Shown: positions 135 to 2,554 of the stretch, piece after piece | Position numbering within the stretch: the stretch's first letter is position 1 | Layout of the letters: every line of letters begins with the position of its first letter | From: Candidatus Heimdallarchaeota archaeon | Lineage (GTDB): Archaea > Asgardarchaeota > Heimdallarchaeia > Heimdallarchaeales > Kariarchaeaceae | Direction: 5' to 3' | DNA length: 7,102 nucleotides | NCBI GenBank assembly: GCA_027016475.1 | Contig: JALUTL010000450.1 | Coordinates: 1-7,102, forward strand | The notes under the pieces: model-generated | The model's input: the letters and a program-made list of their open reading frames with translations, nothing else | What the model was told of the DNA's origin: nothing | The model's database searches: none | Translations under genes and position numbers: made by a program

Positions 135-941
135 CTAACGGGAAAGTCTTAACGCTCGTTCTGGAGTTTCATATATGGGCAATTTTGCCCTTACATGATC
201 TGTCAGAAACTGAATGGCTGCCGCCCTTTCATCAGGAACGCCTCCCTTCATATACCTGTTTCGTGCAATGGCCAAGTTTTTCAGAAATTCAGAAGGTGAG
301 GGATCGATCCCATAATAGGAAGCTACAGCTCCAGGATTAAGTTCTTCTGCCTGCCCATATAAGATCATGGCGGCATAAATTGGATCCTTGAGCTTTGTAA
401 TTGAAGTAAGCCCCAATAGAATATGATGCTTTTCTGGCAGTTGAGCTGGAATAATTCCCGGTGAATCGAACATGTAAAGGCTATTGCTTACACGAATTTT
501 CTGCTCTCCTCTCGTTTTTCCAGGAATTGGTGCAACGCCTGCTGCTGACTTTCCACGGAGTGTATTGATCAAAGAGCTTTTTCCAGTATTGGGAAAGCCC
601 ACAACAGCAACAACTGCCGTTTTTCGTTTCGATGCACGCAAGAGAACCTGTCTAATGCGTGAGGTTCCCAACCGCTGAGTGGCAGAAAATCCTGCCGCAA
701 CCATCCCCCGCTCGTCAAACCAATCAAGCCATTGTTGAAGAAGGTCTCGGGGAATCAGATCAGTCTTGTTGATGCCAATTACCAAGTTGCAGTGATCCAA
801 TGAGTTAACGTACTCTTCCAGTCTTGAGCTTCGACAAATTGAGGGAAACCGTGCATCCACCACTTCCAAAACGACATCAGATCTATCCACGAGGCTATAC
901 ACTATCCCCCAGAATCGGTTCATTGACATGGTCAAATACAT
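135..941 (-). CDS. rbgA: Circularly permuted ribosome-biogenesis GTPase, YlqF/RbgA family (MMR1/HSR1-type, 50S/60S assembly GTPase)
   Basis: 268-aa ORF. The G motifs are in permuted order: G4 NKTD (GINKTDL), G5 SAT (FSATQ), G1 GFPNTGKSS, G2 PGKTRG, G3 DSPG. The N-terminal DVVLEVVDARFP and the C-terminal helical domain (RNRYMKGGVPDERAAAIQFLTD...G/KLP..ETPE) are typical of RbgA/YlqF. The start could be the ATG beginning at 941, 929 or 923 on the minus strand. Confidence 0.85.
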   Translation of the reverse strand: MYLTMSMNRFWGIVYSLVDRSDVVLEVVDARFPSICRSSRLEEYVNSLDHCNLVIGINKTDLIPRDLLQQWLDWFDERGMVAAGFSATQRLGTSRIRQVLLRASKRKTAVVAVVGFPNTGKSSLINTLRGKSAAGVAPIPGKTRGEQKIRVSNSLYMFDSPGIIPAQLPEKHHILLGLTSITKLKDPIYAAMILYGQAEELNPGAVASYYGIDPSPSEFLKNLAIARNRYMKGGVPDERAAAIQFLTDHVRAKLPIYETPERALRLSR

Positions 942-1100
942 ATCAACATGGAAACTTTAGAACTATTGGATTAGCTACACTTACAATAAGAAGTTCAGAA
1001 GATAACTTCCGTTTTACAATATTTTCCCTTGCGGAAGAAGTTTCATTGGGTTCAAAGTATTTACAAAGAAGATAGAGATCTCTTTTGCCAATTTGAGTTC

Positions 1101-1114
1101 AAAACCACGAAAAA
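1101..1114 (-). terminator. T-runs ending the pre-5S transcript (T5 at 1114-1110, T4 at 1104-1101 on minus strand)
   Basis: The minus strand reads ...CCUGUCAGUUUUUCGUGGUUUUGAAC. These oligo-T tracts lie immediately 3' of the BHB/processing stem. I cannot tell which run is used. T5 lies between the inner and outer stems. Confidence 0.4.
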
Positions 1115-1120
1115 CTGACA

Positions 1121-1140
1121 GGTTACCCCATATCCAGGTT
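1121..1140 (-). other. BHB motif, trailer-side strand: h' AAC (1140-1138), H CUGG (1137-1134), 3-nt bulge AUA (1133-1131), h UGGGGUA(A)CC (1130-1121)
   Basis: Base pairing worked out by hand against 1250-1268. See the findings for the pair list. Confidence 0.7.
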
Positions 1141-1253
1141 CGGATGTTACTGGGTGCACACCAACCCTATGACCGTAATCGTGCTACAGCGTGACGCCTT
1201 TCCCGATTGCTCGCGCAAATCAGTACATGGGTCGTCCGGAGTTGGGCTTAACT
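1132..1253 (-). rRNA. rrf: 5S rRNA, circularly permuted gene (helix III 3' strand, II', V, loop E, IV and loop D encoded before helix I 5' strand, loop A, II, III and loop C)
   Basis: On the minus strand the order is as follows. GUUAAGCCCAAC at 1252-1241. Helix V GACG(A)CC 1236-1230 paired with GGCGUC 1198-1193. Loop E AUGUACUG...GGGAAA. Helix IV with a GCGA tetraloop at 1214-1211. Helix I as a hairpin, GCUGUAG 1190-1184 / UUACGGU 1178-1172, with loop CACGA. Loop A CAUAG at 1171-1167. Helix II GGGUUGG 1167-1161 paired with CCAACUC 1245-1239. Helix III CCAG 1153-1150 / CUGG 1137-1134 enclosing loop C UAACAUCCGAAC. The ends are defined by the predicted BHB cleavage sites, giving 122 nt. Confidence 0.8.
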
Positions 1254-1268
1254 CTCTGGTGGGGTACC
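1250..1268 (-). other. BHB motif, leader-side strand: h GGUACCCCA (1268-1260), H CCAG (1259-1256), 3-nt bulge AGA (1255-1253), h' GUU (1252-1250)
   Basis: Complementary to 1121-1140. The two 3-nt bulges lie on opposite strands and are separated by exactly 4 bp. Confidence 0.7.
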
Positions 1269-1310
1269 TTCAACCGTGGTTGTTGTACAATATCATCTAA
1301 AGCTGACAAG

Positions 1311-1317
1311 TATATAA
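1311..1317 (-). promoter_or_regulatory. TATA box (TTATATA on minus strand) for the permuted 5S transcription unit
   Basis: The minus strand reads CCCTTATATACTTGTCAGCTTTAGATGATATTGTACAACAACCACGG. The TATA box lies about 25-30 nt upstream of the first nucleotides of the leader stem. A second AT-rich box (AATTATA) sits just upstream. Confidence 0.5.
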
Positions 1318-1446
1318 GGGTATAATTAGATAACAGGGAGAGGTAATGTAGTTATGTTTGAAAGAATGGTTAGGCAGTTGAAACTTTTTTGAGAAGGTTT
1401 TAGGAAAATTGAGAAGAGTCGAAGGTCGATAGCCAATACAAGTCAA

Positions 1447-1950
1447 TTATTTGGAGGCCTCCTGTTCCCTCAATTTGGTTGAAGAAATTGGAGATCCGTC
1501 AGCATCAAAAACCCATTCAATCGTATAGATATGTAGAGGTTTCAACTCCCTTTCCTTTCTCATTTGGTTTATTTTCTCTGCATTGGGATAAGTTTCTTCG
1601 GACACTACGATAAGATCAGCCTCAGGGTCAGTTGGGGCGGGTCCCCACGGGTCAAGGAGCTCAGCAACAGTCACTACAGAATTAAACTGGTGCATAAACT
1701 CCTGAACGTTTGCGATACGTACTGACGTTGGCTGGATCAGATCATGGTGTTTTTTATTGGGAAAAAGCTTTTTCCCAAGCCTATTTCCTACTACCCCAAC
1801 AAAAACCTCTTGAGCCAATAGCGCAGCGGTTTCAAGGAGCCGCTTGTGTGCGTCATGAAGTCTATCAAAGGTGCCACCCATGACCGCCTTTCGGAACGGT
1901 TTTTGATCTCTAGGAAATTCCTTGGATAAGTATTTCTGCAAATCATTCAT
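1447..1950 (-). CDS. coaD: Phosphopantetheine adenylyltransferase, archaeal/eukaryotic type (cytidylyltransferase-fold, CoA biosynthesis)
   Basis: 167-aa ORF. It has a nucleotidyltransferase signature GGTFDRLHDAHKRLL (an HxGH-type motif, with A in place of G), then DPWGPA, VVSEETYPNAEKINQMRKERELKPL, and a C-terminal DGSPISSTKLR (ISSTxxR motif). This is the pattern of archaeal PPAT (COG1019-like). Confidence 0.8.
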   Translation of the reverse strand: MNDLQKYLSKEFPRDQKPFRKAVMGGTFDRLHDAHKRLLETAALLAQEVFVGVVGNRLGKKLFPNKKHHDLIQPTSVRIANVQEFMHQFNSVVTVAELLDPWGPAPTDPEADLIVVSEETYPNAEKINQMRKERELKPLHIYTIEWVFDADGSPISSTKLREQEASK

Positions 1951-1970
1951 TACGCTTGATTTGCTATAGG

Positions 1971-1978
1971 ATTATTAA
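1971..1978 (-). promoter_or_regulatory. Candidate TATA box (TTAATAAT on minus strand) about 25 nt upstream of the PPAT ATG; implies a leaderless or near-leaderless mRNA
   Basis: AT-rich octamer at the canonical archaeal distance from start codon 1950. No Shine-Dalgarno-like purine tract lies in between. Confidence 0.3.
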
Positions 1979-2069
1979 TCGTTCCGCTTTTGCTTATAGT
2001 CTGAGTTATCAAGAACCAGAACTATACCCTATCTTGAATGCAAGACCATTGAGAACAATCCCATTCCTC

Positions 2070-2077
2070 TTATACCT
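2070..2077 (+). promoter_or_regulatory. Candidate TATA box (TTATACCT) about 24 nt upstream of ATG 2096
   Basis: Position relative to the start codon. The region is a divergent intergenic shared with the PPAT gene. Confidence 0.3.
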
Positions 2078-2095
2078 TTTAGAAAAGTAAACATC

Positions 2096-2554
2096 ATGGA
2101 TAACGCTTGGCCCATTGTGGTACTTCATAATGTCAATTCATCCAGCCGATGCACTGAATTTGTTCGAATAGCGACAGGTCTAGGATTCAAGACATTGGTT
2201 CTTTCACAAGCGCAGGGATCTGCGGCACAGAAAGGGATTCCTGCAGCTCAAAAGTACGCCTACAAGGAAAAGGCAAATTTTCTGGCTCTCTACTCCATTC
2301 AGGATGTTGTCGATTTGTTCAGTCCAGAGGAGTTGATATTAGTTGCCCCCCAACCATATGGAAAAGTGACTTTGGATGAAGAGTTCATACAAAATCTTTC
2401 CAATAAGAAATATGCGATTGTTTTTGGAGGGAATGATCCAGGGTTGACAAGAAAGGAGTTGGATATGGGCACATCCGTTCAGCTTCCGATTCCAGATATT
2501 GGATCAATAGGAACATTGGCGGTCACTTTGGCCAAAATTCGGCAATTGATCTGA
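2096..2554 (+). CDS. Small SPOUT / alpha-beta-knot superfamily-like protein (putative RNA methyltransferase fold; archaeal DUF-type), function unknown
   Basis: 152-aa ORF. The C-terminal half, YAIVFGGNDPGLTRKELDMGTSVQLPIPDIGSIGTLAVTLAKI, follows the SpoU/TrmH knot pattern (hhhG.e..Gl...l...d..v.IP....S....A..h). The N-terminal IVVLHNV...FVRIATGLGFKTLVL resembles SPOUT motif 1. The family assignment comes from motif pattern only. Confidence 0.5.
   Translation: MDNAWPIVVLHNVNSSSRCTEFVRIATGLGFKTLVLSQAQGSAAQKGIPAAQKYAYKEKANFLALYSIQDVVDLFSPEELILVAPQPYGKVTLDEEFIQNLSNKKYAIVFGGNDPGLTRKELDMGTSVQLPIPDIGSIGTLAVTLAKIRQLI

What the first reader, a model, noticed from the sequence alone, without database searches (positions are those of the whole stretch)
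1121..1268. Canonical bulge-helix-bulge motif brackets the permuted 5S and predicts a 122-nt excised or circularised product
Leader and trailer pair as follows. Helix h is A1260-U1130, C1261-G1129, C1262-G1128, C1263-G1127, C1264-G1126, A1265-U1125, U1266-A1124, (A1123 bulged), G1267-C1122 and G1268-C1121. A 3-nt bulge AUA (1133-1131) follows on the trailer strand. The central 4-bp helix H is C1259-G1134, C1258-G1135, A1257-U1136 and G1256-C1137. A 3-nt bulge AGA (1255-1253) follows on the leader strand. Helix h' is G1252-C1138, U1251-A1139 and U1250-A1140. Two 3-nt bulges on opposite strands separated by exactly 4 bp is the recognition structure of the archaeal tRNA-splicing endonuclease (EndA). 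The same enzyme excises and circularises pre-16S and pre-23S rRNA and processes permuted tRNAs. Any symmetric pair of cleavage positions within the bulges releases exactly 122 nt. Using the usual bond between bulge nucleotides 2 and 3, the product is A1253..U1132. Ligation of its ends, as RtcB does for BHB products, would restore a continuous helix III 3' strand with a 3-nt AUA bulge in place of the usual AA. Finding a BHB at exactly the one place that restores 5S topology is very unlikely by chance.
Basis: partly seen in the sequence, partly recalled or inferred. Interest (0 to 1): 0.92.

Follow-up and report, generated by a model that had tools for sequence, protein, structure and literature searches.

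The report
Permuted 5S rRNA flanked by BHB
A Heimdall-group (Asgard) archaeon encodes its 5S ribosomal RNA with the two halves in swapped order, bracketed by a conserved cut-and-rejoin signal of the tRNA-splicing enzyme. The enzyme probably stitches the RNA into a 122-nt circle, which may be why 5S genes could not be found in closed genomes of this group.

Summary
These form h (9 bp plus a bulged A1123), a 3-nt bulge, a 4-bp helix, a 3-nt bulge, then GUU/AAC. This structure brackets a 5S rRNA gene whose 3' half precedes its 5' half, with helix I capped by a 5-nt loop.

A generic BHB of this quality is not rare: the scan found 14 in the window, against about 17 in shuffles. The evidence lies in its position and its conservation.

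I found 14 homologous permuted copies in independent Heimdallarchaeial assemblies, including a Kariarchaeum cluster, a 'Hodarchaeota' MAG and other Heimdallarchaeota MAGs.
- All 14 keep the 4-bp helix.
- All 10 tested h pairs and 3 of the 4 central pairs show compensatory changes.
- 94% of cells are paired, against 67% in shuffles.

Re-joined at the predicted junction, the sequences fold into a canonical 5S, with 22 of 34 pairs compensatory. A covariance model built from them recovers a genuine bacterial 5S (E about 1e-15).

Most likely mechanism: EndA cuts both bulges and RtcB ligates the ends, giving a 122-nt circular 5S. This is inferred, not shown; no RNA data were available. I found no published description. 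Verdict: a new variant of a known kind, of high interest.

The parts
1311..1329 (-). Putative archaeal promoter: a BRE-like CTAATTATA followed by the TATA-like CTTATATA (1318-1311). The inferred transcription start is near 1288 +/- 3.
   Evidence: Read directly. The same CTAATTTAAnnCTTAwATA block lies at the same distance upstream in L002/L029, L003 and L005. No tool here scans for archaeal promoters, so this is inferred.
1271..1282 (-). Leader hairpin CAAC-CACG-GUUG, upstream of the processing stem.
   Evidence: Read. It is kept with compensatory changes in L003 (GAACU-UACG-AGUUC) and in L005/L029 (UCAAC-UACG/CACG-GUUGA). It forms in the MFE folds of L002, L003 and L005a.
1260..1268 (-). Leader strand of the outer helix h (GGUACCCCA).
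   Evidence: pair probability 0.91-1.0; 10 of 10 h pairs show changes on both sides across 14 copies.
1256..1259 (-). Leader strand of the central 4-bp helix H (CCAG). It mimics the 5' strand of 5S helix III.
   Evidence: 4 of 4 pairs in all copies; 100% paired, 3 of 4 pairs covary.
1253..1255 (-). Leader 3-nt bulge AGA. The predicted EndA cut is between G1254 and A1253.
   Evidence: One search gives the geometry. The exact bond is inferred from the canonical BHB rule (my own knowledge). Cleavage leaving a 2',3'-cyclic phosphate is described in PMC12397907.
1132..1253 (-). Predicted excised 122-nt permuted 5S rRNA, the body of the circle.
   Evidence: Re-permuted, it folds as a 5S with helices I-V. 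Model R1 built from it hits a genuine 5S.
1184..1253 (-). 5S 3' half: the helix III 3' strand after the junction, loop B, the helix II 3' strand, helices V and IV with loops E and D, and the helix I 3' strand GCUGUAG (1190-1184).
   Evidence: The Rfam 5S model aligns this half (15.8 bits).
1179..1183 (-). 5-nt cap loop CACGA joining the native 3' and 5' ends of 5S across helix I.
1132..1178 (-). 5S 5' half: the helix I 5' strand UUACGGU (1178-1172), loop A, the helix II 5' strand, the helix III 5' strand CCAG, loop C with CCGAAC, and the helix III 3' strand CUGG plus AU.
1134..1137 (-). Trailer-side strand of H (CUGG). The same four bases form the helix III 3' strand in the mature fold.
   Evidence: columns 141-144; columns 48-51.
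1131..1133 (-). Trailer 3-nt bulge AUA. The predicted EndA cut is between U1132 and A1131.
1121..1130 (-). Trailer strand of helix h (UGGGGUAACC, with A1123 bulged).
1101..1114 (-). Oligo-U tracts (U5 at 1114-1110, U4 at 1104-1101). These are the probable archaeal transcription terminator.
   Evidence: Read. Every homologue has a U5-U8 run 10-35 nt after its trailer strand. Inferred.

Best explanation
Window 1329-1101 (minus strand) is a stand-alone transcription unit for a circularly permuted 5S rRNA gene of a Heimdallarchaeial (Asgard) archaeon. The transcript starts with a leader of about 35 nt. It then carries the 5S 3' half, a 5-nt loop closing helix I, the 5S 5' half and a short trailer.

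The leader and trailer pair into a processing stem. At its inner end is a bulge-helix-bulge. The leader supplies a copy of the helix III 5' strand (CCAG), which pairs with the real helix III 3' strand (CUGG). A 3-nt bulge flanks this helix on each side.

The proposed pathway has four steps.
1. The tRNA-splicing endonuclease EndA cuts in both bulges and releases the 122-nt piece A1253..U1132.
2. CUGG switches partner to the internal CCAG, forming helix III. This brings the 5'-OH and 2',3'-cyclic phosphate ends together in the helix III bulge.
3. RtcB joins the ends.
4. The product is a covalently closed 5S rRNA in which helix I is a hairpin and the usual AA bulge reads AUA.

Shown here: the permuted gene, its selection as a 5S, and the conserved, co-varying BHB at the junction.

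Inferred: transcription limits, EndA cleavage, RtcB ligation, and that the circle is the mature form rather than an intermediate.
For: Sequence and pairings.

Evidence that it is a 5S:
- The Rfam 5S model matches only the 3' half in genomic order (15.8 bits).
- It aligns full length (27.2 bits, E 0.001) where a 5' half is followed by the next copy's 3' half in a tandem locus.
- Re-permuted sequences give the five-helix 5S fold, with 22 of 34 pairs compensatory.
- Model R1, built from them, hits a bona fide bacterial 5S at 61.9 bits, E 1.2e-15. Rfam scores that same RNA at 93.7 bits.

Homologues were found by nhmmer or by pattern in 12 further loci from independent assemblies. None of the eight loci scanned with Rfam at gathering threshold gave a 5S call.

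Conservation of the BHB:
- H is 4 of 4 in every copy. h has at least 6 contiguous pairs in most copies.
- On 14 copies, 94.1% of cells are paired, against 67% in shuffles (0 of 500 reach the observed value).
- 10 of 10 h pairs and 3 of 4 H pairs change on both sides.
- Sliding the partner by 1-3 columns drops pairing to 25-52%.
- The one apparent exception, L002, is a collapsed tandem. L029 has identical flanks but two copies, each with its own matched leader and trailer.

Thermodynamics: h has probability >0.8 in 11 of 13 copies and H >=0.47 in 7 of 13.

Position-specific chance: 7.7e-5 with GU allowed, 5e-7 with Watson-Crick pairs only.

Pathway context:
- Circular 16S and 23S transcripts were observed in Asgard archaea (PMC12918454).
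- EndA leaves a 2',3'-cyclic phosphate (PMC12397907).
- Products excised at BHB motifs are circularised in vivo in Haloferax (PMC7714728).

Some helix I caps are stable UUCG-type tetraloops. This argues against the cap being a processing site.
Against: - No transcript, end-mapping or junction-read evidence was available.
- h' (GUU/AAC) is invariant, so covariation is uninformative, and its predicted probability is below 0.1 in every copy.
- In the L008/L012/L014/L016 clade the leader bulge is only 2 nt, H contains one or two G-U pairs, and H is not predicted by folding. A strictly hBHBh'-dependent EndA might not cut those copies.
- L003 has a weak h: 3 bp, an internal loop, then 5-6 bp.
- Generic BHB-like matches are as common as chance in this window.
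- I could not verify that EndA and RtcB genes are present in this genome, or that a conventional 5S gene is absent. Only loci of up to about 16 kb were readable.
Confidence: 0.7

Rival explanations
1. Circular intermediate only. EndA and RtcB make the circle, but a second endonuclease then opens the helix I cap loop. The ribosome would receive a conventional linear 5S. Permuted tRNA genes of Cyanidioschyzon and most circular pre-16S/23S rRNAs behave this way.
For: Known precedents re-open the circle (PMC3978253, listed; PMC10515664). The caps of L019, L021 and L024 are A/U-rich (UAUUAU). Methanococcus pre-5S is cut at A/U-rich motifs.
Against: The cap has no conserved sequence or length (4-7 nt). 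There is no second BHB. In several lineages the cap is a stability-optimised tetraloop: cUUCGg in L016, UUCG in L008. Helix I plus cap behaves like an ordinary covarying hairpin. Some archaeal 23S rRNAs are reported to stay circular in ribosomes (PMC12918454).
Confidence: 0.17
2. Cut but not ligated. EndA, or another nuclease, trims the precursor at the bulges. The mature 5S is then a linear permuted RNA whose ends sit in the helix III bulge, held together by helix III. Brown-algal mitochondrial 5S is likewise permuted in the final product.
For: A permuted 5S that stays permuted exists in organelles (PMC4267664). After refolding, the break would be only a nick in a bulge between paired segments.
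Against: EndA products carry 2',3'-cyclic phosphate and 5'-OH ends, which are RtcB substrates by my own knowledge of that ligase. Products excised at BHB motifs are reported as circles in Haloferax, and circular 16S/23S transcripts are reported in Asgard archaea. Only 2 bp (AC/GU) would hold the 5' end beyond the nick.
Confidence: 0.1
3. The leader-trailer stem is a generic processing or folding helix used by another nuclease or chaperone, and the BHB-like geometry is incidental.
For: Leader-trailer helices are widespread around rRNAs (PMC11404451). BHB-like matches occur at chance frequency in the window. H is not thermodynamically favoured in the L008 clade.
Against: An incidental geometry would not keep exactly 4 bp between two bulges in 14 of 14 copies. 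It would not keep 3+3-nt bulges in 10 of 14 copies, or a register that regenerates the 5S helix III bulge in all of them, while the h sequence turns over completely.
Confidence: 0.03
4. Artefact, pseudogene, or an intron-containing normal 5S. On the artefact reading, the permuted order comes from mis-assembly of tandem 5S repeats. On the intron reading, the functional gene is the 5' half of one copy plus the 3' half of the next, with the spacer acting as an intron.
For: Tandem copies exist in L005 and L029. One assembly (L002) collapsed them and others carry N gaps. Rfam aligns 5' half + 44 nt + 3' half as a full-length 5S.
Against: The window, L003, L008, L012, L019, L021, L024 and L026 are single copies between unique protein genes, so no downstream 3' half is available. 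Helix I is closed by 4-7 nt rather than by a spacer with promoter and terminator. All five helices show compensatory evolution. In the tandems each copy's leader pairs with its own trailer, not with its neighbour's.
Confidence: 0.01

Closest known systems
Circularly permuted tRNA genes processed through a BHB and a circular intermediate (Cyanidioschyzon merolae; review PMC3978253)
   Same: The 3' half is encoded upstream of the 5' half. The native termini are joined by a short linker. Leader and trailer form a BHB-type motif, so cleavage and ligation restore the normal connectivity.
   Different: The RNA here is a 5S rRNA rather than a tRNA, and the host is an archaeon. No RNase P or tRNase Z-type signals are present to re-open the circle at the native ends. 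The junction lies in the helix III bulge.
[quoted passage not shown]
   Same: A leader-trailer helix contains a 3-4-3 BHB. EndA excises the rRNA and a ligase circularises it. The pathway is documented in Asgard archaea for 16S and 23S.
   Different: Those genes are colinear with the mature rRNA, and the circle joins spacer sequence. Here the gene is permuted, the H helix borrows mature rRNA residues, and ligation is needed to create a mature helix. The cited literature states that this pathway applies to 16S/23S 'but not 5S'.
Circularly permuted 23S rRNA of Pyrococcus and Thermococcus (PMC7758197; bioRxiv 10.64898/2026.03.23.713588)
   Same: An rRNA whose mature connectivity differs from the gene order, through BHB circularisation.
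   Different: In that case the gene is normal and the product is permuted (circularisation plus excision of H98). Here the gene is permuted and the product is predicted to have normal or circular connectivity.
Permuted mitochondrial 5S rRNA of brown algae (the mtPerm-5S model of PMC4267664)
   Same: A 5S rRNA with helix I replaced or closed by a hairpin and the termini moved elsewhere.
   Different: Those termini lie at the junction of the alpha and gamma domains. There is no BHB, no ligation is proposed, and the final RNA stays permuted. No Rfam family other than 5S_rRNA matched the region; whether the mtPerm-5S model is in the Rfam copy searched was not checked.
Heterogeneous circular 5S reads in Sulfolobus and Halobacterium (PMC12558985)
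   Same: Circular molecules containing 5S sequence have been seen in archaea.
   Different: Those arise from normal, colinear genes, have variable junctions and lack a BHB. They were interpreted as degradation-related.

Membership tests
5S rRNA (Rfam RF00001) | Three-way junction with helices I-V supported by covariation. | tested here: met
   After re-joining at the predicted junction and opening the cap, RNAalifold recovers helices I, II, III, IV and V. 22 of 34 pairs are compensatory.
5S rRNA (Rfam RF00001) | Sequence and structure homology to accepted 5S rRNAs. | tested here: met
   Model R1, built from the re-permuted sequences, hits a bacterial 5S in L015 at 61.9 bits, E 1.2e-15. Rfam scores that RNA at 93.7 bits. 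The Rfam 5S model aligns full length across the tandem junction in L006 at 27.2 bits, E 0.001.
5S rRNA (Rfam RF00001) | Reaches the Rfam gathering score (38 bits) as a colinear gene. | tested here: not met
   There is no hit at gathering threshold in the window or in eight homologous loci. The best hit in the window is 15.8 bits, over the 3' half only. The gene order is permuted, so it is a 5S by homology but not by the colinear model.
Archaeal hBHBh' motif (EndA substrate) | Central helix of exactly 4 bp. | tested here: met
   4 of 4 pairs in the window and in all 14 copies. 3 of the 4 pairs covary.
Archaeal hBHBh' motif (EndA substrate) | Two 3-nt bulges on opposite strands, each 3' of its H strand. 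| tested here: met
   In the window these are AGA (1255-1253) and AUA (1133-1131). 10 of 14 copies have 3+3 nt. The L008 clade has 2+3 nt, a relaxed form.
Archaeal hBHBh' motif (EndA substrate) | Outer helix h adjoining the motif. | tested here: met
   In the window there are 7 contiguous pairs plus 2 more after a bulged A. 10 of 10 aligned pairs show double-sided changes, and 90% of cells are paired.
Archaeal hBHBh' motif (EndA substrate) | Inner helix h'. | tested here: inconclusive
   GUU/AAC can pair in all 14 copies. The residues are invariant 5S residues, so there is no covariation signal, and the pair probability is below 0.1 in every fold.
Archaeal hBHBh' motif (EndA substrate) | Actual cleavage by the splicing endonuclease in both bulges. 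| not testable with these tools
   This needs an in vitro assay or end mapping.
[quoted passage not shown] | The 3' half lies upstream of the 5' half, with the native ends joined by a short linker. | tested here: met
   The linker is 4-7 nt in all copies.
[quoted passage not shown] | A circular RNA is detected, through junction reads or RNase R resistance. | not testable with these tools
   No transcriptome data were accessible.
mtPerm-5S (brown-algal permuted mitochondrial 5S) | Match to the family's covariance model, with termini at the alpha/gamma junction. | tested here: inconclusive
   The Rfam scans of the region returned only 5S_rRNA, even at E<=10. I did not check that the mtPerm-5S model is in the Rfam copy searched. 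The break point here is in helix III (beta domain), not at the alpha/gamma junction.

The most novel reading that the evidence does not exclude
The permuted gene is the only 5S rRNA gene across much of Heimdallarchaeia, the archaeal class from which eukaryotes are thought to have emerged. Its mature form inside the ribosome would be a covalently closed circle that is never re-opened. 5S biogenesis in these organisms would then depend obligatorily on the tRNA-splicing endonuclease and on RtcB.
Probability: 0.4. Interest if true: 0.93.

Novelty: new variant of a known kind. Interest (0 to 1): 0.88.

Why it matters
1. It offers a concrete explanation for a reported annotation gap. 5S rRNA genes 'could not be predicted' in closed Heimdallarchaeum genomes (PMC8813620), and standard models miss every locus found here. 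It also yields a search model that would fix this.

2. As far as the searched literature goes, it would be the first rRNA gene that must be cut and re-ligated by the tRNA-splicing machinery to gain its functional connectivity. It would extend BHB processing to 5S, which current reviews and papers explicitly exclude.

3. It predicts a circular, or at least topologically unusual, 5S rRNA in the ribosomes of the closest archaeal relatives of eukaryotes. Junction reads in existing metatranscriptomes or enrichment cultures could test this directly.

4. The leader's mimicry of helix III implies a built-in conformational switch that couples processing to folding.

Tried and rejected
- Rfam at gathering threshold and ARAGORN on the window found nothing. 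The feature is invisible to standard annotation.
- A generic BHB scan of the whole window gave 14 matches, against about 17 expected. I dropped 'a BHB exists' as evidence and relied on register and conservation.
- The collection scans also returned L013 and L017, which are chance matches in GC-rich coding DNA, and L015, which is the end of one normal bacterial 5S followed by the start of another. I rejected all three as permuted genes and used L015 as a positive control.
- L002 at first looked like a counter-example, with no h pairing. It proved to be a collapsed tandem once L029 was read.
- The 'normal 5S with a BHB intron' reading of the tandem loci was rejected, because most loci, including the window, are single copies.
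- Loci L018 and L023 start at the neighbouring genes and contain no 5S, so they are uninformative.
- I could not test for a conventional 5S gene, or for EndA and RtcB genes, elsewhere in these genomes. The family is therefore larger than the five genome hits.
- Eight successful literature searches found no description of a permuted or BHB-flanked archaeal 5S.
Full report
**Observation.** The RNA lies on the minus strand. Reading 1290 to 1100 gives the following:

...UUGUACAACAACCACGGUUGAAGGUACCCCA-CCAG-AGA-GUUAAGCCC...GCUGUAG-CACGA-UUACGGUCAUAG...CAUCCGAAC-CUGG-AUA-UGGGGUAACCUGUCAGUUUUUCG...

- Both 3-nt bulges lie 3' of their strand of the 4-bp helix. From my own knowledge of the hBHBh' model, this is the handedness of tRNA-intron and pre-rRNA BHBs.
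- The piece between the second and third bulge nucleotides, A1253..U1132, is 122 nt.
- The MFE fold and partition function of the precursor contain h (p 0.91-1.0) and H (p 0.54-0.72). They do not contain the three h' pairs.

**Is the enclosed RNA a 5S rRNA?**
- Rfam at gathering threshold and ARAGORN find nothing in the window.
- In E-value mode the 5S model aligns only the 3' half (15.8 bits).
- By eye the region is a 5S 3' half (AGUUAAGCC..GUACUG..GGGAAAGG..GCUGUAG), a 5-nt loop, then a 5S 5' half (UUACGGUCAUAG..CCGAACCUGG).
- I cut the homologues at the predicted bonds, opened them in the cap loop and folded them together. RNAalifold returned the canonical helices I-V, with 22 of 34 pairs showing compensatory changes.
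- A covariance model built from that alignment (R1) finds a genuine bacterial 5S in L015 full length at 61.9 bits, E 1.2e-15. Rfam scores that RNA at 93.7 bits.
- In a tandem locus, the 5' half of one copy is followed by 44 nt and then the 3' half of the next. There the Rfam 5S model itself aligns positions 1-120 at 27.2 bits, E 0.001.

The gene is therefore a real, selected, circularly permuted 5S.

**Relatives.**
- The flanking genes are a GTPase, a phosphopantetheine adenylyltransferase (PPAT), a DUF2122 protein and a P-type ATPase.
- PPAT homologues come from Heimdall-group Asgard MAGs. One cluster carries the name Candidatus Kariarchaeum pelagius.
- I fetched the contigs of PPAT homologues. 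I also ran one pattern scan each of the genome and metagenome collections, demanding the permuted order.
- This gave colinear homologues of the permuted gene in L002/L009, L003/L010, L005/L006/L011 (two tandem copies), L008 ('Hodarchaeota' DZ1B.339), L012, L014, L016, L019/L020, L021/L022, L024, L026 and L027-L029 (two tandem copies).
- None of the eight loci scanned with Rfam at gathering threshold gives a 5S call.
- Each unit has its own TATA-like box upstream and an oligo-U run after the trailer. These were read and are inferred.

**Is the BHB more than chance?**
- A scan of the whole window for any hBHBh' (h>=6, H=4, h'>=3, G-U allowed, span 40-400) finds 14 matches. Shuffled windows average 16.8. 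The motif alone carries no weight.
- At the single register that restores 5S connectivity, shuffled leaders satisfy H 4/4 plus h>=7 in 7.7e-5 of trials. With Watson-Crick pairs only, as observed, the figure is 5e-7.
- The same architecture is found at the same register in every homologue, with different sequences (and for L029a):

| Copy | h (leader/trailer) | H (leader/trailer) |
|---|---|---|
| window | ACCCCA/UGGGGU | CCAG/CUGG |
| L005a | CUCCCA/UGGGAG | CCAG/CUGG |
| L029a | CUCCUA/UAGGAG | CCAG/CUGG |
| L005b, L029b | GCUUUCU/AGAAAGC | CCAG/CUGG |
| L021 | GACUCAUCAAC/GCUGGUGAGUC (one mismatch) | CGGA/UCCG |
| L019 | AUCUUGGG/CCCAAGAU | CGGG/CCCG |
| L024 | AUCUUGAG/UUCAAGAU | CGGG/CCCG |
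| L026 | GCUCUUAGAA/UUCUAAGAGC | CGAG/CUCG |
| L008, L014, L016 | CAACGCCUG/CAGGCGUUG | CUGG/UCGG |
| L012 | GAUCCUG/CAGGAUC | CUGG/CCGG |

- On a 14-copy alignment kept in register (A4), 94.1% of cells form standard pairs, against 67.0% in column shuffles (0 of 500 reach the observed value).
- All 10 h pairs and 3 of the 4 H pairs show changes on both sides. H is paired in 100% of cells.
- Sliding the 3' partner by 1-3 columns drops pairing to 25-52% (a 13-copy version is).
- The leader strand of H always copies the 5' strand of that lineage's own helix III. H and helix III are therefore mutually exclusive pairings of the same four trailer-side bases.

**Exceptions and how they resolve.**
- L002 had a leader and trailer that do not pair. 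L029 is an independent assembly with identical flanks, but it has two tandem copies. The first leader matches the first trailer and the second leader matches the second trailer. L002 is exactly 'leader 1 + one 5S + trailer 2', a collapsed repeat. The N gaps in L005, L027 and L028 show the same assembly difficulty.
- L003 has a weak h: 3 bp, a 3x3 internal loop, then 5-6 bp.
- In the L008/L012/L014/L016 clade the leader bulge is 2 nt if GUU pairs with AAC, H has one or two G-U pairs, and folding does not predict H. This is a relaxed BHB. Relaxed BHB-like forms (for example bulge-helix-loop) are cut by some archaeal endonucleases (PMC12397907). The (alpha-beta)2 type accepts bulges of various lengths (PMC7714728).
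- h' is available in all copies but consists of invariant 5S residues and is never predicted thermodynamically. It remains unsupported rather than contradicted.

**Mechanism.** These steps are inferred.
1. EndA cuts in the two bulges, leaving 2',3'-cyclic phosphate and 5'-OH ends (PMC12397907).
2. The released body refolds so that CUGG pairs with the internal CCAG.
3. RtcB seals the nick.

The junction reads ..CUGGAU-AGUUAAGCC.. in the window, an AUA bulge. In the L008 clade it reads ..CGGAA-GUUAAGCC.., which is the usual AA bulge.

Products excised at BHB motifs are circularised in Haloferax (PMC7714728). Circular 16S and 23S transcripts have been seen in Asgard archaea (PMC12918454).

Whether the circle is final is open. 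The helix I caps are short, unconserved in sequence, and in some lineages are UUCG tetraloops. There is no second BHB. I therefore favour a circle that is not re-opened. Re-linearisation in the cap, as happens with permuted tRNAs, and an unligated nicked form both remain possible.

**What is known.**
- The only paper in the library containing the phrase 'permuted 5S' concerns organelles. The brown-algal mitochondrial 5S is permuted in the final RNA, has no BHB, and has its termini at a different place (PMC4267664).
- Circular 5S reads in Sulfolobus and Halobacterium come from normal genes, have variable junctions and are considered degradative (PMC12558985).
- A 2026 paper states that circularisation applies to archaeal 16S and 23S 'but not 5S rRNAs' (PMC12918454).
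[quoted passage not shown] The present finding would explain this.
- Further searches found no prior description.

**Verdict.** The parts of the mechanism are all known: BHB, EndA, RtcB, permuted RNA genes and circular pre-rRNAs. Their application to a 5S rRNA gene, and its distribution in Heimdallarchaeia, appear to be new. I rate it a new variant of a known kind and of high interest.

**Main limits.** There are no RNA data. I did not check for a conventional 5S gene or for EndA and RtcB genes in the same genomes. h' is unsupported. One clade has a relaxed motif.

Noticed in passing
window 1282-1271 (minus strand); also L003, L005 and L029 leaders: A small leader hairpin with a YACG tetraloop (CAAC-CACG-GUUG) lies between the putative transcription start and the processing stem. 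It is kept with compensatory changes in L003 (GAACU-UACG-AGUUC) and in L005/L029 (UCAAC-UACG/CACG-GUUGA). It is absent from the short leaders of the L008 clade. Its function is unknown.
   Followed up: partly
window 1280-1274 with 1109-1103 (minus strand): The leader-trailer complementarity continues beyond helix h: AACCACG pairs with CGUGGUU. This gives a stem of about 25 bp in the MFE fold. The distal part lies downstream of the first U5 run and competes with the leader hairpin, so it forms only if transcription reads through.
   Followed up: no
L005 3381-2941; L029 1278-1766; L027/L028; L002 5084-5274: Some lineages carry two tandem permuted 5S copies, each with its own matched leader and trailer. 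Assemblers collapse the pair into one chimeric copy (L002, WAKA01000061) or leave N gaps inside the second copy (L005, L027, L028).
   Followed up: yes
L012 3220-3278: A degenerate extra fragment lies about 350 nt upstream of the intact gene. It contains only a leader-like stretch and a 5S 3' half (..CUCUGCUGGAAGUUAAGUUAGGCUCCGUUUCGAUCUGUAUUG..). It is probably a decaying duplicate.
   Followed up: no
window 135-2554; L002, L003, L005, L019, L021, L024: The permuted 5S gene tends to sit next to the same genes: PPAT, a DUF2122/SPOUT-like protein and an RsgA/MMR_HSR1-type GTPase. This neighbourhood persists down to about 50% PPAT identity, although gene order and orientation shuffle.
   Followed up: partly
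L008 3294-3379; L016 5517-5418: The Rfam tRNA hits directly upstream of the permuted 5S are 86 and 100 nt long. This suggests intron-containing tRNA genes, which would be further EndA substrates next door.
   Followed up: no
L003 4735-4789: A borderline SNORD36 (C/D box) hit, 31.4 bits against a gathering score of 30 with E 0.59, lies inside the DUF2122 coding region. It is probably a false positive.
   Followed up: no
L024 470-1339: A heliorhodopsin gene lies about 0.8 kb from the permuted 5S in the Kariarchaeum-like contig. This fits a sunlit marine host.
   Followed up: no
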